Assembly: GCA_900551705.1 (NCBI GenBank)
Contig: URWY01000001.1
Location: 22,273 to 86,272, forward strand
DNA: 64,000 bases
Direction: 5' to 3'
From: an uncultured Bacillota bacterium
Lineage (GTDB): Bacteria > Bacillota > Clostridia > Christensenellales > UBA1242
The position numbers and the translations under genes are program-made. Position 1 is the first letter of the stretch. The number at the start of each line of letters is the position of its first letter. The notes below the pieces were generated by a model. That model was not told the origin of the DNA. It saw only the letters and a program-made list of their open reading frames with translations, and did not search any database. Below are positions 2,973 through 34,374 of the stretch, one piece after another.

Positions 2973-4088
2973 ATGATTTACTTTGACAATGCGGCGACGA
3001 CTTTTCCAAAGCCTCAATGTGTATACGATGCAGTAAATGAAGGAATGAAGAAATTTTCATTTAATGCAGGAAGAGGAAGTTATAGTGCCGCTATAGACAC
3101 TTTTAATATGATATCAGCTACAAGAGAAAAGATTGCAAACATTGTCAGAGCAAATCCTAATCAAGTAGTTTTTACAGCATCTGCAACTGAATCGTTAAAT
3201 ATTATAATTAATGGTCTTGATTTAAAAAGGGGAGATAAGGTTTATATCTCACCTTTTGAACACAATTCAATTGTAAGAACATTACATAAATGTGATGTGG
3301 AAATAAAGTTTATTCCTTTTAGCAAAAAAAATTGGAGTGTTAATTATGACAAATTAAATGATGAATTGGCAATTAACAAGCCTAAAGCTGTTATTATTAG
3401 TCATATTAGTAATGTTACCGGTTTTGAGTTGCCATATAATGAAATATTTAAGTACTCAAAAAAATATGGCGCGGTTACTGTGTTAGATTCTGCTCAAGGA
3501 TTTGGAACATATCAGGTAGATGCACGATTTGTGGATTTTGTCGTTTTTGCAGGTCATAAATCTTTATACAGTGTATTTGGTGTTGCAGGATTTATAAATA
3601 AAACAAACATCCCTTTGATTGTTTTTAAAACTGGGGGAACTGGTTCTGACTCGTTAAATTTAGACATGCCACAAGAACTCCCTGCAAAAATGGAAGCTGG
3701 TAGTCTAAATGCAGTTGCTATATACGCATTAAATAAAAGTATAGATTTCATTGTTAATAGCGATTTTGCAATAAAAAAACATGAACTAACAAGTTATTTA
3801 ATAGAAAGATTGAAGGAGCTTGATAATGTTATAATTTATTGCCCAGATGATATTGAAACCAAAGGTATAGTTGCCTTTAATATTGAAGGTTATACCTCTG
3901 ATGAGATTGGCAAAATATTGTCTTCGCAATATGATATTTGTGTAAGAACGGGATATCACTGTGCACCTTATATACATGATTTTTTAGAAGATAAAAAATA
4001 TTCTGGATGTGTTAGGGTTAGTTTAAGTGGTTTCAATACAATTGATGAAATAGATACTTTAATTGATGCAATAAATAATTTGATATAA
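2973..4088 (+). CDS. PLP-dependent cysteine desulfurase (class V aminotransferase; SufS/Csd-type active-site loop)
   Basis: N-terminal 'IYFDNAATTFPKP'. PLP-lysine motif 'FAGHKS' (Lys196, nt 3558-3560). Catalytic Cys loop 'RTGYHCAPY' (Cys330, nt 3960-3962). GGAGG SD 5 nt upstream of the ATG. Confidence 0.85.
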   Translation: MIYFDNAATTFPKPQCVYDAVNEGMKKFSFNAGRGSYSAAIDTFNMISATREKIANIVRANPNQVVFTASATESLNIIINGLDLKRGDKVYISPFEHNSIVRTLHKCDVEIKFIPFSKKNWSVNYDKLNDELAINKPKAVIISHISNVTGFELPYNEIFKYSKKYGAVTVLDSAQGFGTYQVDARFVDFVVFAGHKSLYSVFGVAGFINKTNIPLIVFKTGGTGSDSLNLDMPQELPAKMEAGSLNAVAIYALNKSIDFIVNSDFAIKKHELTSYLIERLKELDNVIIYCPDDIETKGIVAFNIEGYTSDEIGKILSSQYDICVRTGYHCAPYIHDFLEDKKYSGCVRVSLSGFNTIDEIDTLIDAINNLI

Positions 4089-4108
4089 ATTTATAGAGAG
4101 GAGGAAAG

Positions 4109-6241
4109 ATGTCTTTAAGAGAAGTTATAATAAAAAAAGAATATCGTTCTTTATTGGATAATGTTGCCAAAGAGTTTTATATTCCATTATTACAAAAAGC
4201 AGTGTTATATAAAAGAGCTGTTGGATTTTTTTCTTCATCTGTTTTAATAGAAATATCAAAAGGAATATTGGGATTAGTAAAAAATGCTGGCAAAATACAA
4301 TTGATAGCATCGCCATATTTGTCTGATGAAGATGTAGAGGCAATAAAAAATGGTTACAGTAGGCGGGAAATTGTTAGAAAGGCTGCGTTAAGAGAGTTGA
4401 AAGAACCAAGAAATGCATTTCAAGAAGAACGATTAAATTTTTTGGCAAATCTAATTGCTGATGGTATTTTGGATGTTAAAATAGCTATAACTGATACTGG
4501 TAATAAGATTGGTATGTATCATGAAAAAGTTGGGATAATTGAAGATTTGGAAGGTAATAAAGTTGCTTTTTCGGGTTCAATGAATGAGTCTGCGAACGCT
4601 CTTTTAGCTAATTATGAAACCATAGATGTATATACAAGTTGGAGTGATGATAAGGATAGAGTTGAATCAAAAGAAAAAGCCTTTGATTTAATTTGGAATA
4701 ATAATGAATCAAATATAAAAACTATTGAGTTTGAGGATATTGGAGAGGACTTTATAAAGAGATATAAACGAAATACAATTGACTATAAGGAATATTCTAC
4801 AAATGAAAACGATTGTGATAATATAGAAGAATGGAAGTTTTTTAAAGTCCCAGAAGAAGTTGATTTTTATGATTATCAGAAAGATGCTATTGACGCGTGG
4901 ATAAAAAATTCTTGTTGTGGAATTTATGATATGGCAACTGGTTCTGGTAAAACATATACAGCTCTAGGATCAATTACGAAATTGTCACAAATGTTAAATG
5001 AAGAAATTGCGATTGTAATAGTTGCGCCATATCAACATTTAGTTGAACAATGGGTTGAAGATATAAATAACTTTAATGTTAATCCAATAGTTGCTTATTC
5101 TTATAGAGGTCAAAAATGGCGACAATATTTTATCGATGCGGTGAATGCTTATAATATTGGAGCGAGGAAGAATTTCTGCATAATTACAACAAACGCGACT
5201 TTTGCAAGTGATGATTTTCAAAACATTCTAAATAAGTTAAAAAAGAATTTTTGCTTTATTGTTGATGAGGCTCATAATTTTGGTGCAACAAAATTAAGTT
5301 CATTATTACCCAAAAAAGCAAGATATAGATTGGCTCTATCTGCCACAATTGAAAGACATAGAGATGAAGAAGGTACAGCTTGTTTAAGAAAATACTTTAG
5401 TAAAACGTGTATTTCATTTAGTTTGAAGGATGCTATAAATAAAGGATTCTTAACAAGTTACTACTATCATCCAATCATTGTATATTTATCTCCTGAGGAG
5501 CTTGAAGATTACAATGAAATAACAAAAAAGATCATAAAAATGGGTGGAATAACAAAAGAAAATCTTGAAAAAAATAAAAACTTAGAGTTATTATTAATTA
5601 AAAGGGCTAGGATTGTTGCCGGGTGCAAATCAAAGGTTGATAAATTATTAGATATTATAAAACCATTTAAAGATGATAGTTATATATTAGTGTATTGTGG
5701 TGCAACCAAATATGATAATCAAGATATTTCTGATGATCAAGATATTCGTCAAATTGATGAAGTAAGTAATAGGTTGTATGGAGATTTGGGGATGAAGGTA
5801 AGAAAATTTACTTCATCAGAAAGTAAAGAAGAGAGAATAGAAATAAAAAGAATGTTTGCTACTGGCAGAGAATTGCAAGTAATAACAGCTATTAAATGTT
5901 TGGATGAGGGTGTTAATATTCCTGCAATAAAAACTGCATTTATATTGGCTAGTAGTACAAATCCAAAAGAATATATTCAAAGAAGAGGAAGGGTTTTAAG
6001 AAAATTTGAAGGGAAAGAATATGCTGAAATCTTTGACTTTATTACGTTGCCAAGACCTTTAAGTAGAGTTAGATTTTGTTCTCCAGATGAAAAATCATAT
6101 GACTTGTCACTGGTTAGGAAGGAATTTACAAGAATGATAGATTTTGCAGATACGGCACGAAATAAATTTGAAATTGATAATATTAAGTCTGAAATAGAAA
6201 GGGCTTATACAAATCTAACAGGAGGATATTTTGATGAATAA
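4109..6241 (+). CDS. Single-HKD PLD-family nuclease domain fused to SF2 (DEAH) helicase
   Basis: HKD motif 'YHEKVGIIED' followed by 'GSMNES' (aa 137-160). Helicase motif I 'MATGSGKTYTA', II 'VDEAHNFG', III 'SATIER', VI 'QRRGRVLRK'. GAGGAGG SD upstream. Confidence 0.85.
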   Translation: MSLREVIIKKEYRSLLDNVAKEFYIPLLQKAVLYKRAVGFFSSSVLIEISKGILGLVKNAGKIQLIASPYLSDEDVEAIKNGYSRREIVRKAALRELKEPRNAFQEERLNFLANLIADGILDVKIAITDTGNKIGMYHEKVGIIEDLEGNKVAFSGSMNESANALLANYETIDVYTSWSDDKDRVESKEKAFDLIWNNNESNIKTIEFEDIGEDFIKRYKRNTIDYKEYSTNENDCDNIEEWKFFKVPEEVDFYDYQKDAIDAWIKNSCCGIYDMATGSGKTYTALGSITKLSQMLNEEIAIVIVAPYQHLVEQWVEDINNFNVNPIVAYSYRGQKWRQYFIDAVNAYNIGARKNFCIITTNATFASDDFQNILNKLKKNFCFIVDEAHNFGATKLSSLLPKKARYRLALSATIERHRDEEGTACLRKYFSKTCISFSLKDAINKGFLTSYYYHPIIVYLSPEELEDYNEITKKIIKMGGITKENLEKNKNLELLLIKRARIVAGCKSKVDKLLDIIKPFKDDSYILVYCGATKYDNQDISDDQDIRQIDEVSNRLYGDLGMKVRKFTSSESKEERIEIKRMFATGRELQVITAIKCLDEGVNIPAIKTAFILASSTNPKEYIQRRGRVLRKFEGKEYAEIFDFITLPRPLSRVRFCSPDEKSYDLSLVRKEFTRMIDFADTARNKFEIDNIKSEIERAYTNLTGGYFDE

Positions 6242-6419
6242 TACCAATGAAAGCATTAACAATTTAACAAATACTATTGTGTTTGAGCCTCAAAAATTAA
6301 AAGAAATGGTATCAAGAATTTATGATGCTGAAGTTAGGAATACTAAAACAAAACAAAGAACTGAAAAACAGATGAAAGATATGATAGAAAAAATTATAGA
6401 GGAGGTTGCAAATAAATGA
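6234..6419 (+). CDS. 61-aa protein of unknown function, overlapping both neighbours
   Basis: ATG 6234 is preceded by GGAGGA (6221-6226). It overlaps the helicase 3' end by 8 nt, and its TGA overlaps the next ATG (ATGA at 6416-6419). The product is charged and K/E-rich with no recognisable motif. Confidence 0.45.
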   Translation: MNNTNESINNLTNTIVFEPQKLKEMVSRIYDAEVRNTKTKQRTEKQMKDMIEKIIEEVANK

Positions 6420-8425
6420 TTTTAAAAAAGATAAAATTTCATAACTTTAGACCATTTATTGGTGATCAAACTATAGATTTATCATCTGAAGATAAAGAAA
6501 AGAATGTTACAGTTATTTTGGGTTCTAATACATTTGGAAAAACAACATTTGTTTTATCTTTTATATGGTGTTTATATGGAGATAGTAGATTTTCTCGACC
6601 AAATGAAATTCTTAACAAGAAGGTTGAGAAGGAAATGGGGTATGGAGAACAAAAAACTGCTTCTGTAGAAATAGAATTTGAAGATGATGGTGTCTATTAT
6701 ACAGTTATTAGGTCTCAAATGTTTACAATGGGGAGTAATAGAACGCTAACAACAAATGGTAGCGATGTTAAAATGACCTATGTTGAAGATTCAATGACAA
6801 AGTCTGTTGGTAATTTAAAACATCAAGTAGAAGAAGCAATAGAGGCTATTTTGCCAAAAGATTTATCACCATTTTTCTTCTTTGAAGGTGAAAAAGGCAA
6901 TGAAATTCCAAAAGCGGATTTAGGTAAATCGGTTAGAACCTTATTGGGGCTTGAGGCTTTTGAAAAAATGAGAGAACATATTCATGGTTCGGGTTCAAAC
7001 TACAATACAGATAGCGTTATGGGTAGATATGCGGCTAAGATAAGTGAAAAAAGTGGAAAGGATGCAAAAAATGCTCTTCAAAATAAAAAACAGGCAGAAG
7101 AAGAGCTTCAAAGTACTAATACTAGAATTAAAGAAATAGAAAATGATATAAAAGATTATTCTGACAAGATTGAAATGATAAATACAGAGTTAAGGAATGC
7201 TGAACCTACTAAAGCTTTACAAGAGAAAAGAGATTCTATACTTGCAGAAACACAAAGATTAAAAGAAAGTTTGAATTCTAGTATGAAAAAATTCCTAACA
7301 TCATTTAGTAAAAATTCATTACCATTGTTAGTTTCATCGTTTACAGAAAAAGCCAGAGAAAGATTAAAGGAAATGGATATTGCGGATAAAGGAATAAAGG
7401 GAATAGAAGCACCTGCCATTTACGAATTATTGAAAAGAGGAACTTGTCTTTGTGGGACCCAACTAAATGAAGGTAGTATTGCCTATAAAAACGTTAAAGA
7501 TTATATAGATTATATTCCACCTAAAAACGTAGGAACTCTTGCGGCTGAAATGTTAGAAAATATTGACAAATTTGACGAATGCGCCAAAGATTATGTGGAA
7601 GAATTTGAAGAATTATACAAAGAAATTCAAAAGATTAAAACAAGAATTAATGATTTGGAAAGAGAAGAAAAAAGAGTTTTGTTTGAGATTTCAAGAATTG
7701 GTAGTATAGACACTTCAAATTTAGAAAGTGATTTGTCTTCGTATAATTCAAGAATTAAAGATTTAAAAGAAGAAAAAGAATTAAAACTAATAAAAATTGG
7801 ATCTTTACAAAATAGAATTGAAAATGCGGAAAAAGATTTTAATACAGCTCAGAGCAAAAATGTGTCTAATGAAAAATTTCAAACATACTTCAAATATGCG
7901 GAATCAATATATATTTGGTTAAATAACAATTATAATTCAAAAGAAAACACAATGAGAGAGCGTTTAAGCAAATATATTAATGAGCTATATAACGAAATGT
8001 ATAGCGGAACTCGTGATGTTTCAATTGATAAAAATTATAATATTCACATGTTATATGAAGGTGAAGAGAGTGCGACTACTGGATTATTAAAGACCATCCA
8101 ATATTGTGCATATGTAGCATCTTTGGTAAAATTATCTAAAGAGGTTATGTTAGAGAGAAATAATGATGATCCGTTATCGGATCCTCAAAATAAAAGTGAA
8201 AAATACCCATTAGTTTTTGATGCTGTATTTTCTACTGCAGATGAAGAACATACACCTAAAATTGCAAAAACATTGGCTGAAAGTACAGAACAACTTGTTT
8301 TTGCTGTGATGAGAAAAGACTGGACATTAGCAGAATCTGGCTTAATTGGAAAGGTTGGTAGATTTTATGAGCTTGAAAAAATAGATGAGTGGGAAGTAAA
8401 AATTGTGGAGGTGAATAATGGATAA
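6416..8425 (+). CDS. DndD/SspC-like SMC-type ABC ATPase with central Cys-x-Cys
   Basis: N-terminus 'MILKKIKFHNFRPFIGDQTIDL...VILGSNTFGKTTFVLSFIWCLYG' (Walker A, Lys42) is typical of DndD/SbcC-type ATPases. Long heptad-like K/E/L-rich middle region. 'GTCLCGTQL' at aa 342-350 of 669 (nt 7445-7453). C-terminal Walker-B-like 'YPLVFDAVFSTADEEH'. Confidence 0.75.
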   Translation: MILKKIKFHNFRPFIGDQTIDLSSEDKEKNVTVILGSNTFGKTTFVLSFIWCLYGDSRFSRPNEILNKKVEKEMGYGEQKTASVEIEFEDDGVYYTVIRSQMFTMGSNRTLTTNGSDVKMTYVEDSMTKSVGNLKHQVEEAIEAILPKDLSPFFFFEGEKGNEIPKADLGKSVRTLLGLEAFEKMREHIHGSGSNYNTDSVMGRYAAKISEKSGKDAKNALQNKKQAEEELQSTNTRIKEIENDIKDYSDKIEMINTELRNAEPTKALQEKRDSILAETQRLKESLNSSMKKFLTSFSKNSLPLLVSSFTEKARERLKEMDIADKGIKGIEAPAIYELLKRGTCLCGTQLNEGSIAYKNVKDYIDYIPPKNVGTLAAEMLENIDKFDECAKDYVEEFEELYKEIQKIKTRINDLEREEKRVLFEISRIGSIDTSNLESDLSSYNSRIKDLKEEKELKLIKIGSLQNRIENAEKDFNTAQSKNVSNEKFQTYFKYAESIYIWLNNNYNSKENTMRERLSKYINELYNEMYSGTRDVSIDKNYNIHMLYEGEESATTGLLKTIQYCAYVASLVKLSKEVMLERNNDDPLSDPQNKSEKYPLVFDAVFSTADEEHTPKIAKTLAESTEQLVFAVMRKDWTLAESGLIGKVGRFYELEKIDEWEVKIVEVNNG

Positions 8426-8984
8426 CATTATTGAAAAGGGTTCTAGGAATGGTTTGTTTACCAGAGAAATTGAACTAAATAATAGATATGCCACAATTAT
8501 AAGGTATTTAAAAGAGGAAGTTAATATATTCTCATCTTTTAGAGATGCGTACTTAAATGCAGCAATAATTGGTTTTTTAAAAAATACTAATACTTCTAAT
8601 TTTAAATTAAATGAAAATGTAAAACCAGCATCAATATTTCCTAATGAATTATCAGCAAGAAGGGCTGATTTAAGATTTGTTTTTAGAATAATAATGGCTG
8701 TTAAAGATGAAGATGATTATAAAATTGATGATTACATGAATAGAACATTTAGAGACGGCTCTGAAGAAGATTCATATAGTGGATTAGATGAAAAAATGGA
8801 AATATTCAATACATATGTTTGTAAGGGATTAGATTATCTTTATAATAAGTTTGAGAATATTCATAACCAAGAAGAAATTGTTAATACTTTATATGAAATA
8901 TTGAGAGATATTGGTATAGAATCTGGTTTGGTTGTTACAGATGGATTACCTGATTTTGATGTTAATGATATTATAGTTGAATAG
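8418..8984 (+). CDS. 188-aa hypothetical protein (operon member)
   Basis: ATG overlaps the upstream stop by 8 nt and has a GGAGGTG SD. No catalytic motif recognised. 'FSSFRDAYLNAAIIGF' vaguely recalls the small helical proteins annotated as dnd-system-associated (from memory, unverified). Confidence 0.55.
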   Translation: MDNIIEKGSRNGLFTREIELNNRYATIIRYLKEEVNIFSSFRDAYLNAAIIGFLKNTNTSNFKLNENVKPASIFPNELSARRADLRFVFRIIMAVKDEDDYKIDDYMNRTFRDGSEEDSYSGLDEKMEIFNTYVCKGLDYLYNKFENIHNQEEIVNTLYEILRDIGIESGLVVTDGLPDFDVNDIIVE

Positions 8985-9020
8985 TATTCGAAAGGATAAA
9001 ATAAAAACGAAGGAGAAATT

Positions 9021-9923
9021 ATGGAGGAATTTTTTGATTTCACATTTGATGACATAAAAAAAATACATGTAGATAATTTTTGCCAACGAGATCAAATGGT
9101 ATCTTCTAATTTCTTAGCATATAAAGAAAATTTTTTATATAAAAAACAAGAAATAGATGAATCCTTGTTGGGAGAATCTTTTCCGCCTATTGAAGAGATT
9201 CCGAATAAGTTTACTGATTTGGTTTTTGATAACAATTCAAGATATTATGTTGAAGATTTAACATTGAGAAATTATTTGTTAGAAAATACTACACCATACA
9301 AAATTGAAATTTTTAACAATGTTATAGAGGAATCTTCATGGGGGAATTTATTATGTAAAATTTCTATACTTTTATTGACACTATATCCTGATAAAAGAGA
9401 AAATATTTGTGAGTTTAAATGTAATTGGACAAAGTCTGTTATGTTTAGTCAAAGCATGAAGACAAACTTTAAATCTATATTTAAGGGGTTATATATAAAT
9501 TGTAATCATACAGCTGTACATGCGTGTTGGTTTTTACAAGACATTTTAGATTTTTTTGAAATTGATAAATCTAAAGTTTTATTTATAATTCATAGGCCGT
9601 GTGGGTCTGAAGACACAGAAATTAAACAAAAATTAAAGAACTTTTTCGTTCGAGGATTTGCCTATTATTTGATTACTAATAAAAATAAAACACTAGAGAA
9701 AGCAAAAAAAATAATCAATGTAATAGATAAACATTTGAATCCTATTTTGGCGGGTTTGTCAAAGAGCTATAATGATTTATTTTTGTTTAATAACAATATG
9801 ATTGTTATTAATTACACAAAAAAGGTTAGAGATAAATTATCAACAATTTCATCTTATAGTGATGATAATAAACGAATTTTAAATAAATATTTGGATTATT
9901 TGGTAGCGTACTATAAGATATAA
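9021..9923 (+). CDS. 300-aa hypothetical protein (last gene of operon)
   Basis: AAGGAG SD 7 nt upstream. Same strand, 36 nt after the previous gene. Followed by a strong terminator. No recognisable motif. Confidence 0.55.
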   Translation: MEEFFDFTFDDIKKIHVDNFCQRDQMVSSNFLAYKENFLYKKQEIDESLLGESFPPIEEIPNKFTDLVFDNNSRYYVEDLTLRNYLLENTTPYKIEIFNNVIEESSWGNLLCKISILLLTLYPDKRENICEFKCNWTKSVMFSQSMKTNFKSIFKGLYINCNHTAVHACWFLQDILDFFEIDKSKVLFIIHRPCGSEDTEIKQKLKNFFVRGFAYYLITNKNKTLEKAKKIINVIDKHLNPILAGLSKSYNDLFLFNNNMIVINYTKKVRDKLSTISSYSDDNKRILNKYLDYLVAYYKI

Positions 9924-9939
9924 GTGGGAATAAAATTAT

Positions 9940-9971
9940 TCATTGTCTCTCTTTTTGAGATAAAAGAAAAA
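9940..9971. repeat. 32-bp direct repeat, copy 1 (tcattgtctctctttttgAgataaaagaaaaa)
   Basis: 31/32 identical to 12276-12307. Starts 16 nt after the stop of the 300-aa gene and lies upstream of terminator 9992-10027. Confidence 0.9.
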
Positions 9972-9991
9972 TAAAAAATTTAATAGAAATT

Positions 9992-10027
9992 AAAAGAAGA
10001 GTTCAAATGTTGAGCTCTTCTTTTTTA
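9992..10027 (+). terminator. Rho-independent terminator of the 7-gene operon
   Basis: aaaagaagagttcaa-atg-ttgagctcttctttttt: a stem of about 14 bp with one mismatch, followed by a T-run. Confidence 0.7.
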
Positions 10028-10064
10028 TACTTTGATTATAAAATTTTAATTAAATTTTGAAAAT

Positions 10065-12269
10065 TTGAGAAAATTATTACAAATGTGTGTTATACTGTCT
10101 TTGTCAAGTATATTAAAGGATAGGATAAATACGAAAAAAAGTCCACGATGTTTATTTAATAGTGATTTTGAAAATTTTTTAAGTTTAGATACAAGTGCAA
10201 TACTAGGAACTTTATGTGATAGTTATCATGGAACTGCGCTTACTACTACAATAGAAGCATGGAAATCTGAAATTGGAATATTGAAAAACGTTGTTTCAAA
10301 ATTAAATGATGACAGAGGTCAGATTGTTTTTGAGTATGATATTCCACGTTTGGGTAAAAGAATTGACTCTGTACTACTTTATAGGGGTATAGTATTTTGT
10401 CTTGAATTTAAAGTGGGTGAGTCTAAAGTTTTAGAAATGGATGTTGACCAAGTATTGGATTATGCTTTAGATTTAAAGAACTTCCATAAACTTAGCAGAG
10501 ATAAAGTTATTGCGCCGATTTTAATCGCAACAAAATATACAAATAGAACAGATACTATACAAATGTCAGTTTATGATGATAGCGTAATTAATCCACTGGT
10601 TACAGGTGAATTTGGAGTTTTAGAGTTAATAGAAAAAGTTTTAGATAGATTTCCAAATGAAGAAATTGTAGATGCTAATTGGATAATAAGCCCATATGCT
10701 CCAACGCCAACAATTGTTGAAGCGGCTAAAAAACTTTATGAAAATCATTCGGTTGAAGATATTACAAGACATGAAGCAGATGATGTTTCAACTGATAGAA
10801 CAATTAAATATATCCTTGATGTAATTCAAAAAAGTAAAACCAATAGAGAAAAGAGTATTTGTTTTGTAACGGGTGTTCCTGGTGCAGGAAAAACTTTGGT
10901 TGGACTTGATATTGCTGTTCGACAAACATATCAAGGAAGTGATAAGCCAGTTGAAGATGAAGGTGCTGTTTATCTTTCAGGAAATGGTCCATTGGTTGCT
11001 GTTTTGAATGAAGCTTTGGCGAAAGATAATTTCAAGAAGTGTAAAGATAAAGGTGAAAATAAGAAATTATCAGATTCTCGCAGAGAGGTTGGAAAATTTA
11101 TTCAAATAATTCATCGTTATCGTGATAATATGCTAGCAAAAATAAAAAATCCAGTAGAAAATGGAGTGCTGGAAATTGATCCTGAAAAGGCTATAAAACT
11201 TGCTGAATCTGGTTATGGTGAAGTAGAACACGTTGCTATTTTTGATGAAGCACAACGTTCATGGACAAAGAAAAGATTGGCTGATTATTTAAAAAGAGGT
11301 GGAACGTATGGAAATAAATTAAAAGTTCCAAACTTTCCATTATCTGAGGCTGCGTTTTTGATTTGGCCATTAGATCAACGTGAAGACTGGGCAACAATAG
11401 TTTGTTTGGTTGGTGGCGGTCAAGAAATTAACACAGGTGAAGCGGGAATATCTGAATGGATAAAAGCTTTGAATGATATATTTCCACATTGGAAAGTTCA
11501 TATTTCTCCAAAGCTAACAGAGCCTGAATACGCAGAGGGTAAAGTTAATGAATTGTTAGAAAAGAATAATAATGTTTCATATTCTGATGATTTACATTTG
11601 AGTGTTTCACTTCGTTCGTATAGAGCAGAAAAATTATCCGCATTTGTTCATTCAATGCTTTCATTTGAATCTAATGCTGCAGAACTTTATAATGAAATAA
11701 AAGATAAGTATCCAATAGTTTTAGCCAGGGATATGGAAAAAGCTAAAAAGTGGTTGCACGAAAAAGTTAGAGGGACTGAACGTACGGGTGTTTTAGTAAC
11801 AAAAGAATCTGCAAGATTTAAACCACTTGGTATACATATACTTGAAGCGGGTGATGAAAATGCAGTGCACTGGTTCCTTGAAGATAAAGTTGATACTAGA
11901 TCATCAAACTATTTAGAAGATGCTGCAACAGAAATTCAAGTTCAAGGTTTGGAACTTGATTATACTTGCGTGTTGTGGGATGCAGATATGAGATGTAATA
12001 ACGACAAATGGCGTTATTATAAATTTAATGGACAAACAAAATGGGTTGAACAAACACCTGATACAGAAAATAAGCAAGAATTAATTAAATACATGTTAAA
12101 CGCATATAGGGTTCTTTTAACACGTGCTAGAGTAGGTATGGTTATTTGTGTTCCAACAGGTAATCCAAATAAAAATCCAAGCGGATATTGGGAAGATAGT
12201 ACTAGGTTGCCTGAATATTATGATGGAACTTATGAGTATTTAAAAAGTTTAGGTATTGAAGAAATATAA
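10065..12269 (+). CDS. PD-(D/E)xK nuclease-like N-domain fused to DUF2075/SF1-type P-loop ATPase
   Basis: 'GKRIDSVLLYRGIVFCLEFKVGE' (D...ExK). Walker A 'GVPGAGKT'. Walker B 'VAIFDEAQRSW'. C-terminal 'AYRVLLTRARVGMVICV' (SF1 motif VI-like). The true start is uncertain (TTG 10065, ATG 10083 or TTG 10101). Confidence 0.75.
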   Translation: MRKLLQMCVILSLSSILKDRINTKKSPRCLFNSDFENFLSLDTSAILGTLCDSYHGTALTTTIEAWKSEIGILKNVVSKLNDDRGQIVFEYDIPRLGKRIDSVLLYRGIVFCLEFKVGESKVLEMDVDQVLDYALDLKNFHKLSRDKVIAPILIATKYTNRTDTIQMSVYDDSVINPLVTGEFGVLELIEKVLDRFPNEEIVDANWIISPYAPTPTIVEAAKKLYENHSVEDITRHEADDVSTDRTIKYILDVIQKSKTNREKSICFVTGVPGAGKTLVGLDIAVRQTYQGSDKPVEDEGAVYLSGNGPLVAVLNEALAKDNFKKCKDKGENKKLSDSRREVGKFIQIIHRYRDNMLAKIKNPVENGVLEIDPEKAIKLAESGYGEVEHVAIFDEAQRSWTKKRLADYLKRGGTYGNKLKVPNFPLSEAAFLIWPLDQREDWATIVCLVGGGQEINTGEAGISEWIKALNDIFPHWKVHISPKLTEPEYAEGKVNELLEKNNNVSYSDDLHLSVSLRSYRAEKLSAFVHSMLSFESNAAELYNEIKDKYPIVLARDMEKAKKWLHEKVRGTERTGVLVTKESARFKPLGIHILEAGDENAVHWFLEDKVDTRSSNYLEDAATEIQVQGLELDYTCVLWDADMRCNNDKWRYYKFNGQTKWVEQTPDTENKQELIKYMLNAYRVLLTRARVGMVICVPTGNPNKNPSGYWEDSTRLPEYYDGTYEYLKSLGIEEI

Positions 12270-12275
12270 AGGTGC

Positions 12276-12307
12276 TCATTGTCTCTCTTTTTGCGATAAA
12301 AGAAAAA
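12276..12307. repeat. 32-bp direct repeat, copy 2 (tcattgtctctctttttgCgataaaagaaaaa)
   Basis: 31/32 identical to 9940-9971. Starts 6 nt after the stop of the DUF2075-like gene and lies upstream of terminator 12367-12397. Confidence 0.9.
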
Positions 12308-12366
12308 AGTGGCTGAAAAATCTGGCAATAAAATTGAATTTTTAAAAATAATTTATATGGCTAAAT

Positions 12367-12397
12367 CTCTGATAAAATCAGAGGTTTTCTTTTTTTA
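12367..12397 (+). terminator. Rho-independent terminator downstream of the DUF2075-like gene
   Basis: ctctgat-aaa-atcagag 7-bp stem followed by gttttcttttttt. Confidence 0.65.
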
Positions 12398-12456
12398 TGT
12401 AAAGAAATCCAGTGTAAAAAGTGACTTATAAAACCCCTTATATAGAGGAGGTTTTT

Positions 12457-12489
12457 ATGAGTAAGAAGAATAAAATCGGAAGAATATAA
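12457..12489 (+). other. 10-codon micro-ORF (MSKKNKIGRI) with consensus SD
   Basis: GAGGAGG (12445-12451), 5 nt, then ATG. Followed by a GC-richer hairpin-forming stretch and a terminator-like hairpin at 12639-12665 (actggg-aaa-cccagt plus a T-rich tail). Confidence 0.3.
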
Positions 12490-12711
12490 AAGCTTAATTT
12501 ACTAAGCAGGAAAAGGAGTGACGTAAATTGTTTTTTATGTGGCTAAAACCCGCTAGATATGGACACTTTTAGTGCCGTCACGCATTTTGTACGTGCCAGC
12601 ACATTGACTCAATTTGCATCTCTCCGCTTTTCGCCACAACTGGGAAACCCAGTTTGTCTTTATTGAACATTTTATTTAATAAGAAAAAATTTCATTGCCC
12701 CTCTAATTGCA

Positions 12712-12978
12712 ATGAAAAGGAAATCTTATATGAATAAAAACATACAAATAATAAATTTACTAAATAGAGATGAGAAAATAACAAAGATTGAAATAGATAA
12801 AACTACTTTAGAAATAGGTGCTTATTTTTTAAAAAACATACTTAAAAATTTTTTGAGAGATAATGGAGATATAGAGAAAATTAAAAAAGAATATACAGGT
12901 TTTGATTGGACTTGTGAAAGCGTTTGTAATATGTGTGTTTGTGATAATTCAAAAAGGAGTAAAACAAGTGAAAAGTAA
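12712..12978 (+). CDS. 88-aa ORF upstream of and overlapping the recombinase start (possible accessory/directionality factor; may be non-coding)
   Basis: ORF-track entry only, with no motif. Its ATG sits inside an 8-bp inverted repeat (ttcattgc-N10-gcaatgaa, 12691-12716). Confidence 0.3.
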   Translation: MKRKSYMNKNIQIINLLNRDEKITKIEIDKTTLEIGAYFLKNILKNFLRDNGDIEKIKKEYTGFDWTCESVCNMCVCDNSKRSKTSEK

Positions 12979-14571
12979 AGTGGTAATATATGCAAGATTC
13001 AGTTCTCATAGCCAAACAGAACAATCAATTGAAGGACAACTCCGTGAATGTTATGAGTTTGCAAAACGAAATGATTATGTGGTTGTAAATGAGTATATAG
13101 ACCGAGCAATTTCTGGTATGACTGATAATCGACCAGCATTCTTGCAAATGATTGAAGATAGCAAAAAGAAAGAGTTTGAATATGTGCTAGTTTACCAATT
13201 AGATAGATTTGCAAGAAGTAGATATGATAGTGCTAATTACAAAGCAAAGCTAAAAAAGAATGGAGTTAGAGTATTGTCTGCAAGAGAAAATATTTCAGAT
13301 GATGCTAGCGGTGTGCTAATGGAATCTGTGCTAGAAGGTATGGCTGAATACTATTCCAAAGAACTTGGTCAAAAAGTAAGACGAGGAATAAATGAAAGTT
13401 TAATCAAAGGTAACTACATTGGTGGAAGTGTTAATCTAGGATACAAGATTATTGACAAAAAATGGGCGGTAGAACCGCAAGAAGCAATCCTTGTGGAAGA
13501 AGTATTCAAACAGTATGCTAATGGTAAATTTGCAAAAGAAATTTGCGATGATTTGAATAAAAATGGATTTAAGAACAAACAAGGCAAAAAGTTTACAGTT
13601 GAGATAATTGCGAAAATGCTTCGCAATAGAAAATATATTGGTGAATTTAATTGTAAAGGAATAGTTTATAATGATATTGTTCCGCCAATCATAAGCAAGG
13701 AATTATTTGATAAATACAATAAAATTATGGATCAACATAAACATAGACAAAAGCACAAAAATAGAGTTGATGATTACATATTAAGTAGCAAGCTATATTG
13801 TGGATATTGTGGTTGCACTATGACAGCTGAATCTGGTAATGGAAAATGTGGGACAAAACATAGATATTATAAATGTAGGAATCGTAAGCATTTAATAAAA
13901 GAATGCGAAAGTAAAACAATTAGAAAGGATTATATTGAAAATCTAATTGTTGATGTAACAAAGAAACATATTCTAACAAAATCAAGAGTAGATCAAATAG
14001 CAAACTTAATTGCAAAACAATATAATGCCGAATTGGGAGAAAATTTAGAACTTGCAAATTTACAGGCACAATTAAATAGATTGACAAACAAATTGAGTCT
14101 TTAATTACTGCGATTATGAATGGATTAAATTCCAAATCGATTGAATTGAAAATTAAACAATTAGAAAATGAAAAATCCATTTTAACAGAAAAAATGGTTT
14201 TATCAGAATCGCACCAAACGAAGCCAATAAAACCAGAAGATATAAAACACTTTATATATTATTTTATGAGTAAGGATTACTCAAATCACAATGAAAGAGT
14301 GGAGTTCCTTACCAAGTTTATATCAAAAATAATTTATTATAATGACAGACTAATAATTATTTATAATACAAAACAAAACGATAGCGAAGAAATAGTAATT
14401 AACAGCAAAGAAGATATAGAAAAGATTCAGAATACAATAAAAAATTTAGAAGAAAAAAAGTCGCTTGGCGAAATTCACGCCGAACGACAGGTTAATGGCG
14501 GGACAGTAAGGGACTCGAACCCCAGGATGTTTTCACATCAATGGTTTTCAAGTTTTTTACGCACGAGTTAG
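12968..14571 (+). pseudogene. Large serine recombinase, interrupted by a -1 frameshift (two ORFs 12968..14104 and 14080/14116..14571)
   Basis: GTG 12968 has an AAGGAG SD. Resolvase catalytic domain 'VVIYARFSSHSQ...EGQ...', recombinase domain and zinc ribbon 'CGYCGCTM...YYKCRN'. The reading frame stops at 14102-14104 but continues in the -1 frame ('IDKQIESLITAIMNGLNSKSIELKIKQLENEK', a typical LSR coiled coil). The indel must lie within 14080-14101. The joined length of about 534 aa is normal for this family. Confidence 0.8.
14496..14552 (-). pseudogene. Degenerate 3' half of a tRNA-Ser gene (CCA end to anticodon loop); att-type remnant
   Basis: Aligns with 15480-15535 of the intact tRNA-Ser. 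About 41/44 identical over the T-arm, variable arm and anticodon loop, while the acceptor strand has diverged. Similarity ends exactly at ...ggttttcaag (anticodon loop). Confidence 0.8.
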
Positions 14572-14722
14572 TTCGAGTAATTTTAGTTAAAAGTAAGTCA
14601 TTTTGAAAAACCAAAACTGCAAGAGTTTCCCGCATAAAACCAGCGACTTCAAACCTTTTTTTTGTGCAAGTATGATATCATTTGAAGTTAGTTTAGTCAA
14701 GCCTATTAAAAATCAAATTTCT

Positions 14723-14815
14723 AACCCATTTGTTAGAACAAACCGTTTCATAACCACTGCCTGCTATGCTCACTTCGGGAGACCTGAATTCCCATGGGAA
14801 AAAATTAAACCATAA
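14723..14815 (+). pseudogene. Remnant of the 3' end of an S-adenosylmethionine synthetase (metK) gene
   Basis: The tail of track ORF 14603..14815 reads 'TTACYAHFGRPEFPWEKIKP'. Compare the conserved MetK C-terminus TAAYGHFGR..FPWEK (from memory). The upstream part of the ORF has no MetK similarity. Confidence 0.45.
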
Positions 14816-14870
14816 ATGAAAATCTAACATTTTTGTTTGTTCTTTAGAAAAAAGAGTTTATAATGAATTA

Positions 14871-15446
14871 ATGGAAAAAACATTTAAACTTATTAAAATA
14901 ACTAAAGAAAATGTAATTTTGGCAACCGAATTTCAGTCAAGCATTTTTCAAGAGGAATGCGGGTATGGAAGTTTTATGTATTCAATTAAAAAGGAAAGCG
15001 ACTATTTTTCATACTATTTAGCTTATGATAACGAAAACTTGATTGGTATAACAGGTATATATTCATTTGAAAAAGTTGAAGAAACAAATTCGTTATGGCT
15101 TGGATGGTTTGGAGTTTCTCCAATCTATCGCGGAAAAGGCTATGGGAAAGCCTTGTTAAAGCAGACAATTGACATGGTTAAAGGATATGCGAAAAAAGAT
15201 CCTAGAATTAAATATTTTAGACTTTACACATCATCAAGAGACAACCCAGTTGCATGCGAAATGTATCGCAAAGTAATGGATTTTGAAGAAAAATATGAAT
15301 GCGATGGTGATTTTAATTATGACGGAACTTGTCTTATTTTTACCAAATGTATTTGTAAAGATTGCGAAAATCCGCTTTGGAACGATCGATTTTTAAATTT
15401 AAGCAGCATAACAGAAATGGAAAATATTAAGCCCCCAACAATATAA
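14871..15446 (+). CDS. GNAT-family N-acetyltransferase
   Basis: Acetyl-CoA motif A 'VSPIYRGKGYGKALL'. Size 191 aa. Followed by a terminator. Confidence 0.8.
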   Translation: MEKTFKLIKITKENVILATEFQSSIFQEECGYGSFMYSIKKESDYFSYYLAYDNENLIGITGIYSFEKVEETNSLWLGWFGVSPIYRGKGYGKALLKQTIDMVKGYAKKDPRIKYFRLYTSSRDNPVACEMYRKVMDFEEKYECDGDFNYDGTCLIFTKCICKDCENPLWNDRFLNLSSITEMENIKPPTI

Positions 15447-15454
15447 TTATAAAA

Positions 15455-15479
15455 AAGTCTTCAGTTTGAAGACTTTTAT
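15455..15479. terminator. Hairpin terminator between the GNAT gene and the tRNA-Ser 3' end
   Basis: aagtcttca-gtt-tgaagactt 9-bp stem flanked by A-run and T-run, so usable in both directions. Confidence 0.6.
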
Positions 15480-15567
15480 TGGCGCAGAGTTAGGGATTCG
15501 AACCCCAGGATGCTTTCACATCAACGGTTTTCAAGACCGCCGCTTTCGACCGCTCAGCCAACTCTGC
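15480..15567 (-). tRNA. tRNA-Ser (anticodon UGA), class II with long variable arm, encoded CCA
   Basis: The reverse complement folds as GCAGAGT/ACTCTGC acceptor, anticodon loop CUUGAAA, T-loop GGTTCGAATCC and GCCA 3' end. A TTGACA-17-TAAAGT promoter lies upstream on the minus strand. Confidence 0.9.
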
Positions 15568-34217: not shown

Positions 34218-34294
34218 GGGGGTATAGCTCAGCTGGCTAGAGCACCTGCCCTGCAAGCAGGGGGTCATCGGTTCGAATCCGATTATCTCCACCA
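34218..34294 (+). tRNA. tRNA-Ala (anticodon UGC), encoded CCA
   Basis: GGGGGTA/TATCTCC acceptor with G3:U70. Anticodon loop CCUGCAA. T-loop GGTTCGAATCC. Confidence 0.9.
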
Positions 34295-34297
34295 CGA

Positions 34298-34374
34298 TGG
34301 AATGTAGCTCAGCCGGTTAGAGCACCACCCTGATAAGGTGGGGGTCGGTGGTTCGAGTCCACTCATTCCAACCA
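34298..34374 (+). tRNA. tRNA-Ile (anticodon GAU), encoded CCA
   Basis: TGGAATG/CATTCCA acceptor (U1:A72). Anticodon loop CUGAUAA. T-loop GGTTCGAGTCC. Confidence 0.85.

What the first reader, a model, noticed from the sequence alone, without database searches (positions are those of the whole stretch)
9940..12307. 32-bp direct repeat (31/32) brackets a self-contained single-gene cassette
tcattgtctctctttttg[A/C]gataaaagaaaaa occurs twice, 2336 bp apart. The copies start 16 nt and 6 nt after the stop codons of two unrelated genes, and each lies upstream of its own terminator. The bracketed segment holds a terminator, a promoter region and the nuclease-DUF2075 gene, and nothing else. The arrangement looks like a cassette inserted into the 3' UTR of the operon by site-specific or short-homology recombination, with duplication of the target. 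That would be a mechanism for swapping defence genes. At 32 bp it is far longer than a transposition target-site duplication.
Basis: seen in the sequence. Interest (0 to 1): 0.7.

Follow-up and report, generated by a model that had tools for sequence, protein, structure and literature searches.

The report
Conserved junction motif brackets defence-gene module
The 32-bp repeat is real and is a conserved non-coding "junction" sequence of a family of defence islands in gut Clostridia, where it marks the points at which defence-gene modules have been reassorted, most likely by ordinary homologous recombination and not by a dedicated cassette enzyme.

Summary
In detail: 31/32 identical copies lie at 9940-9971 and 12276-12307 (0 expected by chance), bracketing a terminator, a promoter and one DUF2075/PDC-S41 gene.

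The motif (core TTGYCTYTCTTTTTGNRATAAAAGAAAA) is not scattered through genomes. It occurs in a sub-family of defence islands of gut Clostridia that are integrated at tRNA-Ser and carry a large serine recombinase. It joins at least six different left flanks (Pbe operon, DndB module, GmrSD, type III Res, DUF2075, a small divergent gene) to three right flanks in reticulate combinations. Single-copy forms without DUF2075 exist.

The cassette was exchanged recently: synonymous divergence to the closest relative is 0.027 in DUF2075 against 0.29 in the adjacent recombinase.

The fine detail argues against site-specific cutting at the motif:
- Both copies lie just outside the low-divergence tract.
- Divergence inside the gene is mosaic.
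- The other end of a module swap lies in a coding sequence with no motif.
- The recombinase's own site is the tRNA-Ser anticodon-loop region, and the gene is frameshifted here.

Best reading: a conserved junction element that serves as short homology for modular exchange. An integron-like, site-specific mechanism is not excluded (about 0.2). The motif's primary molecular function is unknown.

The parts
4073..9939 (+). Swappable restriction module (PbeA 4109-6241, small ORF, PbeC 6416-8425, ORFs 8418-8984 and 9021-9923). L019 has a DEAD-helicase/HATPase/PLD/DndB module in its place.
   Evidence: PADLOC PbeA/PbeC. Compared with L019, homology ends at about 4073 inside the 3' end of the aminotransferase gene and resumes exactly at 9940.
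9940..9971 (+). Junction motif copy 1 (M1)
   Evidence: Homology to L014/L019 starts at exactly 9940 and to L008-L013 at 9934.
9992..10024 (+). Intrinsic terminator (right-flank type A), bidirectional hairpin
   Evidence: fold energy -23.9 kcal/mol for M1 plus terminator, z=-5.2.
10088..10096 (+). Extended -10 promoter element (TGtTATACT) of the DUF2075 gene
   Evidence: Read from the sequence. It is conserved in L008, L015 and L016, where homology to the window begins just upstream of it. Inferred, not tested.
10131..12269 (+). DUF2075 / Schlafen-group-3-helicase-like defence gene (PADLOC PDC-S41). The canonical ATG start is ACG in this window.
   Evidence: ATG in L019 and L031 against ACG here.
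12276..12307 (+). Junction motif copy 2 (M2)
   Evidence: L002 shares 171 bp starting exactly here.
12308..12446 (+). Right-flank type B: spacer, terminator 12363-12387 and the CCTTATATAGAGG box (12436-12450)
   Evidence: L002 homology ends at 12446, right after the box.
12692..12723 (+). Third, degenerate motif copy (W3, 21/32). It forms a conserved hairpin (TCATTGC...GCAATGA) at the 5' edge of the integration module.
   Evidence: It is present upstream of the small ORF and recombinase in L003, L004, L007, L014, L019 and L020. L020 homology begins at 12687.
12730..12978 (+). Small Cys-rich ORF (82 aa) overlapping the recombinase start; no family match
   Evidence: Called as a gene in L014, L019 and L020; no Pfam match.
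12968..14571 (+). Large serine recombinase, split by a 1-nt frameshift near 14078-14085 (ORFs 12968-14104 and 14116-14571)
   Evidence: Pfam Resolvase+Recombinase+Zn_ribbon_recom. The two ORFs align to residues 3-375 and 384-480 of a 545-aa relative. The intact 545-aa form is 96% identical.
14487..14545 (-). 3' half of a tRNA-Ser gene (up to the anticodon loop), fused to the recombinase 3' end: the island's right attachment junction
   Evidence: Full tRNA-Ser genes occupy this position in L004, L014, L019, L020, L024 and L025.
14546..15479 (+). Second, recombinase-less island remnant in tandem: conserved island left end, metK C-terminal fragment (14603-14815), GNAT gene (14871-15446), terminator
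   Evidence: L015 6398-6496 is 87% identical to 14525-14623. Pfam GNAT; S-AdoMet_synt_C E=0.014; terminator.
15480..15567 (-). Intact tRNA-Ser(tga), the integration target

Best explanation
**What it is.** The 32-mer (M; conserved core TTGYCTYTCTTTTTGNRATAAAAGAAAA) is a conserved non-coding junction element. It belongs to a sub-family of defence islands of gut Clostridia that are integrated at tRNA-Ser and carry a large serine recombinase at the tRNA-proximal end. M sits at the start of the non-coding stretch (M, then a terminator, then further boxes) that follows a cargo module. A diverged copy (W3) opens the integration module itself.

**What the window holds.** Two M copies bracket a self-contained DUF2075/PDC-S41 module with its own terminator and promoter. 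This module, and the modules upstream of it, are reassorted between islands of different species.

**How it most likely works.** Exchange is by homologous or homology-facilitated recombination. M and the neighbouring conserved non-coding DNA supply the short shared sequence on the cargo side. Longer shared genes (modification genes, DUF2075, the recombinase module) supply the anchor.

**Shown:**
- M is a recurrent junction.
- Left and right flanks occur in reticulate combinations.
- One-copy forms exist.
- The cassette has a recent, discordant ancestry.
- The recombinase's own site is tRNA-Ser.

**Inferred:**
- The recombination is homology-driven and not enzyme-directed.
- M is conserved because it has some cis function, such as protein binding or a hairpin. 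That function is unknown.
For: 1. **M is restricted and specific.** There are 2 full copies and 1 degenerate copy in 64 kb, all in the island. The exact 27-mer occurs in only 4 of about 185,000 species-representative genomes and on 3 metagenome contigs, once each.
2. **Flanks reassort.** Left flanks are the Pbe operon (window, L031), a DndB module (L014, L019), GmrSD (L001, L003-L007), type III Res plus its own terminator (L002), DUF2075, and a small divergent gene (L008). Right flanks are A (terminator, promoter, DUF2075), B (171-bp segment) and C (GGTCACAC... terminator plus a GCAACAAAATG box). DUF2075 pairs with both B and C. B pairs with DUF2075 and with type III Res. C pairs with DUF2075 and with GmrSD.
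3. **M is far better conserved than its surroundings.** It is 27-32/32 identical between islands whose recombinases are 57% identical in protein and next to a DUF2075 gene only 82% identical in DNA.
4. **Ancestry is discordant.** Window against L019: DUF2075 CDS 98.8% and recombinase CDS 93.9% (Fisher p=2e-16). Synonymous divergence is 0.027 (DUF2075), 0.12 (aminotransferase) and 0.29 (recombinase). L014 against L019: 99.45%, 97.1% and 93.5% for upstream module, cassette and recombinase module.
5. **The signatures point to homologous recombination.**
   - The low-divergence tract (no differences from 9987 to 10131; last interior difference at 12013, next at 12240) ends inside the cassette, so both M copies lie in the more diverged flanks.
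   - Differences inside DUF2075 are clustered in patches in L014.
   - The left end of the Pbe/DndB module swap lies in the last codons of the aminotransferase gene, where there is no motif.
   - In L014 against L019 the rise in divergence begins 70-120 bp before M2.
6. **The recombinase has a different site.** All islands end with the recombinase 3' end fused to tRNA-Ser. The window has a half tRNA plus a tandem remnant island. The window's recombinase is frameshifted.
7. **A known system behaves the same way.** Cargo and integration modules with discordant histories are documented for serine-recombinase islands in Dehalococcoides (PMC3146451).
Against: - **Sharp edges.** Unrelated sequence abuts M at the same base on the left in about ten contexts, and three right flanks diverge just after ...AAAAGAAAA. 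Homologous recombination can propagate such junctions but cannot create the first one.
- **Concerted change.** Both window copies carry T at motif position 7, whereas both copies carry C in L008, L014 and L019, even though the cassette interior is about 99% identical. This implies conversion or exchange involving the motif itself.
- **Dyad symmetry.** M has imperfect dyad symmetry, and one variant (L008 copy 1) shows a symmetric double change.
- **Position of W3.** An M-like element sits exactly at the recombinase operon's 5' edge in all three island types. This is reminiscent of res sites upstream of resolvase genes.
- **Short homology.** 32 bp is short for RecA-dependent exchange.
- **Small sample.** There are about 10 independent contexts. 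I could scan the large collections only once, and only for the T-type variant.
- **No direct function.** No function for M was demonstrated.
Confidence: 0.55

Rival explanations
1. **Site-specific cassette system.** M is a recombination site, attC/attI-like or res-like. A circular DUF2075 cassette carrying one M integrated at a resident M and produced the two direct copies. Recombination between direct copies excises it again. The enzyme would be the island's serine recombinase, with or without the 82-aa ORF, or an unidentified recombinase.
For: - M has sharp, base-precise edges in many contexts.
- One-copy and two-copy states exist with the same right flank: L002 against the window.
- L002's single copy reads like a recombinant, with base A at position 19 as in copy 1 and the right flank of copy 2.
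- Both window copies share the same state at position 7.
- The motif has imperfect dyad symmetry with one symmetric double substitution.
- M-like W3 lies at the 5' edge of the recombinase operon in every M-bearing island type.
- L020 has an array of M copies upstream of the recombinase.
Against: - The recombinase's attachment site is the tRNA-Ser anticodon-loop region, which has no similarity to M.
- Large serine integrases exchange at a 2-bp core and do not normally create 32-bp direct repeats (established knowledge).
- The recombinase is frameshifted in the window.
- L002, L008 and L015 show no recombinase within the fetched DNA around M.
- The most recent exchange tract ends inside the cassette, not in M.
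- Only DUF2075, or non-coding DNA, was ever found between two M copies.
- The M array in L020 is explained by tandem duplication of units of about 430 bp.
- The upstream module swap has one end without any motif.
- No circular-contig signature was seen.
Confidence: 0.2
2. **Cis-regulatory or structural element.** M is primarily a binding site for an island or host protein, or a hairpin-forming element derived from the W3 5'-UTR hairpin. It is kept by selection wherever a cargo unit ends. Its two copies here reflect two units placed in series, and recombination at it is incidental.
For: - M is conserved far above neighbouring DNA.
- Its orientation relative to downstream units is fixed.
- It is always followed by a terminator within 14-55 nt.
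- W3 forms a conserved 8-9-bp hairpin with compensatory and wobble changes across island types, at -7 to -8.5 kcal/mol.
- In L008, L016 and L020, M or its left half lies in the divergent promoter region of a conserved small gene.
Against: - There is no consistent predicted RNA structure for M itself: variants fold differently, at -3.2 to -6.6 kcal/mol.
- There is no Rfam match.
- No candidate binding protein is shared by all loci.
- This reading does not by itself explain the reticulate flank combinations or the discordant ancestry of the cassette.
Confidence: 0.2
3. Target-site duplication made by a transposon or insertion sequence that delivered the DUF2075 gene.
For: Direct repeats flank a single-gene segment.
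Against: - 32 bp is far beyond known target duplications.
- There are no terminal inverted repeats at the cassette ends and no transposase.
- The same 32-mer exists as a conserved single copy in other genomes with other neighbours, so it is not an arbitrary duplicated target.
- The downstream copy accompanies DUF2075 without the upstream one in L015.
Confidence: 0.01

Closest known systems
Dehalococcoides ssrA-specific genomic islands (CcrB-like large serine recombinase DsiB; PMC3146451)
   Same: - The islands are integrated at the 3' part of a small-RNA gene.
- The recombinase lies next to the attachment site.
- Islands occur in tandem, including recombinase-less (cis-mobilizable-like) ones separated by repeats of the target's 3' end.
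- Cargo and integration modules have sharply discordant divergence: 99.4% against 75% there, and 98.8% against 93.9% here.
   Different: - The target here is tRNA-Ser, with the crossover near the anticodon loop.
- The cargo is anti-phage defence.
- No internal junction motif comparable to the 32-mer is described there.
Staphylococcal cassette chromosome (SCC/SCCmec) composite islands (own knowledge)
   Same: A large serine recombinase, direct repeats of the integration-site sequence bounding elements, and tandem cassettes of which some lack recombinase genes.
   Different: SCC repeats are the recombinase's own att core at the 3' end of rlmH. In this window that role is played by the tRNA-Ser halves (14487-14545 and 15480-15567), not by the 32-mer.
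Integron gene cassettes and attC sites (own knowledge)
   Same: A gene is followed by a conserved imperfectly palindromic site, copies of which separate successive units next to a recombinase gene. Units without an ORF occur.
   Different: - There is no IntI tyrosine recombinase.
- The motif is 28-32 bp, without the RYYYAAC/GTTRRRY cores.
- The cassette has its own promoter and terminator.
- Only one kind of gene was seen between two sites.
- The breakpoint patterns look like homologous recombination.
Conserved boundary or linker sequences at module junctions of mosaic temperate phages (modular theory of phage evolution; own knowledge; related discussion in PMC2327257, PMC3945230, titles and abstracts only)
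   Same: Short conserved non-coding sequences sit at the joints between interchangeable modules, flanks are reassorted, and divergence is mosaic, consistent with homologous or homeologous recombination.
   Different: The setting here is a chromosomal, non-phage defence island (no hits in phage, viral or plasmid collections). The same 32-mer is shared across several species.
Acinetobacter pdif (XerC/D) modules (own knowledge)
   Same: Small gene modules are bounded by copies of a site of about 28 bp made of two arms and a spacer, and the modules are found in different contexts.
   Different: pdif sites alternate in orientation and match the dif consensus. The copies here are direct, they show no evident dif similarity, and no Xer involvement is indicated.

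Membership tests
Transposon/IS target-site duplication | Short (about 2-14 bp) duplication of an arbitrary target flanking an element with terminal inverted repeats and a transposase | tested here: not met
   The repeat is 32 bp. There are no inverted repeats at the cassette ends and no transposase. The same sequence is conserved as single copies elsewhere.
Integron cassette / attC | IntI-type tyrosine recombinase with adjacent attI | tested here: not met
   The only recombinase in the island is a large serine recombinase (Pfam Resolvase+Recombinase+Zn_ribbon_recom).
Integron cassette / attC | attC of 57-141 bp with R''/L''/L'/R' boxes (RYYYAAC ... GTTRRRY); mostly promoterless cassettes | tested here: not met
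   The motif is 28-32 bp and has no GTTRRRY core. The cassette has its own terminator and extended -10 promoter.
att repeats of a serine-recombinase island (SCC / ssrA-GI type) | The repeat is a copy of the 3' end of the target gene and lies at the island ends, next to the recombinase | tested here: not met
   This is met by the tRNA-Ser halves (14487-14545 and 15480-15567) but not by the 32-mer, which is internal to the island and unrelated in sequence to tRNA-Ser.
res-type sites of resolvases | Directly repeated recombinase-binding sites located at the recombinase gene's own promoter; recombinase-dependent deletion between them | not testable with these tools
   An M-like element (W3) does lie at the 5' edge of the recombinase operon in all M-bearing island types. 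Binding and catalysis cannot be assessed in silico.
Xer/dif-type sites (IMEX, pdif modules) | 28-bp site with 11-bp XerC arm, 6-bp spacer and 11-bp XerD arm matching the dif consensus; dif at the replication terminus | tested here: inconclusive
   By eye there is no resemblance to the Firmicutes dif consensus as I recall it. Gene orientation does not switch across the region. I made no formal comparison with a dif model.
Mosaic-module junction ('linker') sequence used in homologous exchange | A short conserved sequence at the joint of interchangeable modules, with flanks occurring in reticulate combinations | tested here: met
   At least six left and three right flank types occur in at least seven combinations.
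Mosaic-module junction ('linker') sequence used in homologous exchange | Segments of discordant divergence whose breakpoints are not confined to the motif | tested here: met
   Synonymous divergence is 0.027, 0.12 and 0.29. The tract ends fall at 9987-10131 and 12014-12239, inside the cassette. Differences are patchy in L014.
Known structured RNA family | Match to an Rfam covariance model | tested here: not met
   No hits other than tRNAs at gathering threshold on the window. None at E<=1 on window 9850-13000 or on L020 4690-7020.

The most novel reading that the evidence does not exclude
The 32-mer and its diverged copy at the recombinase operon are the attC-like and attI-like sites of a previously unrecognised cassette-capture system in Clostridia. 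The system would be driven by a large serine recombinase (perhaps with the 82-aa Cys-rich partner) or by an unidentified enzyme, and would insert and excise promoter-bearing defence-gene cassettes next to the integration module of a tRNA-Ser island. It would be a functional analogue of integrons built on different enzymology.
Probability: 0.15. Interest if true: 0.85.

Novelty: new variant of a known kind. Interest (0 to 1): 0.5.

Why it matters
Defence islands are known to be mosaics, but how individual systems are swapped is mostly unclear. This case shows a defined 28-32-bp sequence, shared across several gut Clostridia species, that marks the joints at which unrelated defence modules (Pbe, a DndB module, GmrSD, type III restriction, DUF2075) are combined. 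It also gives quantitative evidence that one module moved recently relative to its neighbours.

If the motif merely serves as portable short homology, it is a concrete example of how modular exchange is channelled. If it is a true recombination site, it would be an integron-like system in Firmicutes. Either way the motif is a practical handle: scanning for it should reveal further cargo genes, including unknown defence systems, in uncultured gut bacteria.

Tried and rejected
- **Chance or low complexity.** Rejected: 0 matches in 100 shuffles.
- **Motif scattered through the genome.** Rejected within the data available: only island copies in the 64-kb window and single copies in four species-representative MAGs.
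- **Phage, satellite or plasmid origin.** The motif gave no hits in two scans of viral contigs. A protein-based scan of viral contigs with the recombinase found nothing. The cassette is absent from annotated phages and plasmids.
- **Known RNA family.** None found.
- **Consistent RNA hairpin in M, or M acting as an antiterminator for the downstream terminators.** The variants fold differently and weakly, and the three terminators are unrelated in sequence.
- **M as the recombinase's att site.** Rejected: the att site is tRNA-Ser.
- **M as the island's left-end sequence left over from tandem accretion.** The conserved left end (window 14546-14623, L015 6398-6496) does not resemble M.
- **An empty site with the same Pbe left flank.** The only close relative (L031) is collinear and occupied.
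- **Excised circles among assembled contigs.** No terminal overlaps were found.
- **Exact-sequence look-ups.** The window's own 300-aa protein and the 100%-identical DUF2075 protein were not on record.
- **Identity of the small divergent gene and the 82-aa ORF.** No informative family match.
- **More distant islands.** L025, whose recombinase is 56% identical, lacks both M and W3. The motif is therefore not a universal feature of this recombinase family.
Full report
**1. The observation**

The sequence TCATTGTCTCTCTTTTTG[A/C]GATAAAAGAAAAA is present at 9940-9971 and 12276-12307 on the + strand. The copies are 2336 bp apart and 31/32 identical. With up to three mismatches allowed these are the only two matches in the window, and none occurred in 100 dinucleotide-preserving shuffles. 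The copies begin 16 and 6 nt after the stop codons of ORFs 9021-9923 and 10065-12269. Each is followed by a terminator-like hairpin, at 9992-10024 and 12363-12387.

The segment between the copies contains the first terminator, a TG-extended -10 element (10088-10096) and a single gene. That gene matches Pfam SLFN-g3_helicase (formerly DUF2075; E=7e-66) and the PADLOC candidate defence family PDC-S41 (E=9e-242). A third, degenerate copy (21/32) lies at 12692-12723.

**2. The setting**

The region is a defence island. In order it holds:
- an SspC-like gene and a DndA/SspA-like aminotransferase;
- PbeA, a small ORF, PbeC and two unnamed ORFs;
- motif copy 1, DUF2075 and motif copy 2;
- about 0.7 kb of non-coding DNA;
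- an 82-aa ORF overlapping a large serine recombinase;
- a tRNA-Ser region.

The recombinase is split into two reading frames near 14078-14085. The two ORFs align to residues 3-375 and 384-480 of a 545-aa relative, and an intact 545-aa version that is 96% identical exists elsewhere.

**3. The recombinase's own site**

In L004, L014, L019, L020-L022, L024 and L025 the recombinase gene's 3' end overlaps the 3' end of a complete tRNA-Ser gene.

In the window the same position (14487-14545) holds only the tRNA's 3' half, which breaks off after the anticodon loop. It is followed by:
- a stretch of about 80 nt that is 87% identical to a sequence in L015, which I interpret as the conserved left end of such islands;
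- a metK C-terminal fragment;
- a GNAT gene and a terminator;
- the intact tRNA-Ser(tga) at 15480-15567.

This is the arrangement expected for two islands integrated in tandem at the tRNA, with the second one reduced and lacking a recombinase. It resembles the tandem ssrA islands and cis-mobilizable elements described for a CcrB-like serine recombinase in Dehalococcoides (PMC3146451). The recombinase's attachment site is therefore the tRNA-Ser anticodon-loop region. It has no similarity to the 32-mer.

**4. The motif elsewhere**

An exact 27-mer scan of one genome per species found four MAGs, all uncultured Clostridia, each with one copy. A metagenome scan found three more contigs. Viral contigs gave none.

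- In L001 and L003-L007 the motif directly follows the stop codon of a GmrSD type IV restriction gene. It is followed by a different terminator (flank C) and, 1.1-1.6 kb further on, by a serine recombinase 57% identical in protein to the window's.
- In L002 it follows a type III Res-like gene and that gene's own terminator. From the first base of the motif onward, 171 bp are 96% identical to the window's sequence from copy 2 (flank B). After that, an unrelated convergent CBASS operon follows.

L002 is thus a one-copy form that has copy 2's right flank and no DUF2075.

**5. The cassette elsewhere**

Close relatives of the DUF2075 protein are numerous. I fetched several contexts.

| Locus | DUF2075 similarity to the window | Extent of DNA homology to the window | Upstream context | Motif copies |
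|---|---|---|---|---|
| L014, L019 | protein 97% (L014), CDS 98.8% (L019) | starts at exactly 9940, runs at 95-96% identity to the tRNA | DEAD-helicase / HATPase / PLD / DndB module in place of Pbe | both |
| L008-L013 | protein 97% | 9934 to 12515 | small divergent gene, then a Fic / radical-SAM / DUF4365 set | both |
| L015 | DNA 82% | 10086 to 12311 | different | downstream copy only (27/28), with flank C |
| L017, L018 | DNA 79% | coding sequence only | different | none; a NUDIX gene follows directly |
| L031 | collinear, 99% | 7219 to 11044 (whole contig) | Pbe operon, as in the window | upstream copy; contig ends before copy 2 |

(Sources.)

Left and right flanks therefore occur in reticulate combinations. 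DUF2075 pairs with flanks B and C. Flank B pairs with DUF2075 and with type III Res. Flank C pairs with DUF2075 and with GmrSD. The conserved core across variants is TTGYCTYTCTTTTTGNRATAAAAGAAAA.

**6. Recent exchange of the cassette**

Comparing the window with L019:
- cassette 98.65% identical, and DUF2075 coding sequence 98.8%;
- non-coding stretch after copy 2: 92.2%;
- recombinase coding sequence 93.9% (Fisher p=2e-16).

Proportions of synonymous differences are 0.027 (DUF2075), 0.12 (aminotransferase) and 0.29 (recombinase). The contrast therefore reflects different ancestry and not different selection.

Comparing L014 with L019 gives 99.45% for the upstream module, 97.1% for the cassette and 93.5% for the recombinase module. 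Cargo and integration module thus have discordant histories, and the boundary lies near copy 2.

**7. How the exchange happened**

The fine structure favours homologous recombination.

- In the window against L019, the low-divergence tract has no differences between 9987 and 10131. Its last interior difference is at 12013 and the next is at 12240. Differences are dense at 9946-9986 and from 12240 onward. Both motif copies therefore lie just outside the exchanged tract.
- In L014, differences inside DUF2075 are clustered in patches.
- In L014 against L019, the rise in divergence starts 70-120 bp before copy 2.
- The left end of the Pbe/DndB module replacement lies in the last codons of the aminotransferase gene, where there is no motif.

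Some points argue against a purely homology-driven picture.

- The motif's edges are base-precise in about ten contexts.
- Both window copies carry T at position 7, while both copies carry C in L008, L014 and L019. This implies conversion or exchange involving the motif itself.
- One variant (L008 copy 1) has a symmetric double change (positions 10 and 20) in a short dyad.

I found no circular contigs and no occupied/empty pair sharing the Pbe flank.

**8. What the motif might be in itself**

A diverged copy (W3, window 12692-12723) lies directly upstream of the small ORF and recombinase operon in every M-bearing island type. It marks the left limit of homology between the integration modules of L020 and the window. 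It folds into a conserved 8-9-bp hairpin with compensatory and wobble changes.

The 32-mer shares W3's left arm and loop but not its right arm, and its variants have no consistent predicted structure.

In L008, L015, L016 and L020 a homologous small divergent gene lies to the left of the motif. In L016 only the left half of the motif (TCATTACCTCT) is present, just upstream of the DUF2075 promoter. So the left edge is not a universal breakpoint, and the motif may originally belong to such an intergenic region.

In L020 the 1.75 kb upstream of the recombinase is built of repeated units of 200-245 bp, each with a CCTTATATAGAGRGG box and a GCAACAAAATG box. Alternate units contain the motif. These boxes recur next to the motif in the window (12436-12450), in L015 and in the GmrSD-type loci. 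L002's homology to the window ends right at such a box.

No Rfam family matches any of this. The more distant island L025 has neither the motif nor W3.

**9. Conclusion**

The repeat is real and meaningful. It is a conserved junction element of a sub-family of tRNA-Ser defence islands. In the window it brackets an exchangeable DUF2075 module.

The specific proposals are not: neither target duplication on insertion into an operon's 3' UTR, nor action of the neighbouring serine recombinase.

I commit to recombination guided by short shared sequence plus longer homologous anchors as the mechanism (0.55). A true site-specific cassette mechanism stands at about 0.2. A primarily regulatory or structural role for the motif, with recombination incidental, stands at about 0.2.

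The closest described systems are the Dehalococcoides ssrA islands and SCC elements for the island as a whole, and the boundary sequences of mosaic phages for the motif. I found no description of this motif or of an equivalent internal junction element in defence islands.

Noticed in passing
window 12968-14571 (frameshift near 14078-14085): The large serine recombinase is split into two frames (378 aa from GTG 12968, plus 151 aa). Intact relatives are 545-551 aa (96% identical P0121). This is either a pseudogene or a sequencing error; if real, the island is immobilised in this strain.
   Followed up: yes
window 14487-15567: A half tRNA-Ser (3' part up to the anticodon loop) is fused to the recombinase end. 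It is followed by a conserved island left-end sequence, a metK C-terminal fragment, a GNAT gene, a terminator and the intact tRNA-Ser(tga). This is a second single-gene segment bracketed by direct repeats (51/58), at the recombinase's real attachment site. It looks like a reduced, recombinase-less island in tandem.
   Followed up: partly
window 10131-10133: The canonical ATG start of DUF2075 (ATG in L019, L008 and L031) is ACG in the window. Gene callers then choose ATG 10083 (the 728-aa form), which lies upstream of the conserved extended -10 element. The gene may therefore be poorly expressed or inactive in this strain.
   Followed up: partly
window 12689-12978; L004 2339-2600; L020 6724-7013: A conserved hairpin (TCATTGC...GCAATGA with a CCYCTCT loop) lies at the 5' edge of an 82-88-aa Cys-rich ORF (C-terminal CxxxCxxCxC) that overlaps the recombinase start. 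The ORF has no family match. It could be a recombination directionality factor or a regulator.
   Followed up: partly
L020 5060-6100; window 12436-12450; L003, L004, L007, L015 downstream of the motif; L025 5900-6200: The non-coding DNA between cargo and recombinase is built of repeated units (200-245 bp in L020, about 75-80 bp in L025). The units carry a CCTTATATAGAGRGG box, a GCAACAAAATG box and an AT-rich promoter-like stretch. Their function is unknown, and module homologies also break at these boxes (L002 at window 12446).
   Followed up: partly
window 4073-9939 compared with L019 480-6971: A whole restriction module (PbeA-D type) is replaced by a DEAD-helicase/HATPase/PLD/DndB module between the same phosphorothioation-type modification genes and the same DUF2075 cassette. 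This is a clean natural example of effector-module swapping behind shared modification genes.
   Followed up: partly
L008 5561-5790, L015 7572-7895, L016 7590-7826, L020 4726-4983 (all minus strand): A homologous small gene (49-107 aa, no family match) is transcribed divergently from the motif/DUF2075 side in four loci. Its promoter region adjoins the motif.
   Followed up: partly
one search hit table: A large share of the contigs carrying close DUF2075 relatives are only 2.2-2.8 kb, about the size of the cassette. Assemblies may break at the cassette edges because the cassette sits in several contexts within one sample. P0007's contig (2477 bp) could not be fetched to test for circularity.
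   Followed up: no
window 34218-34374: A tRNA-Ala(tgc)/tRNA-Ile(gat) pair, of the kind usually found in rRNA spacers, occurs here without any rRNA match in the window.
   Followed up: no
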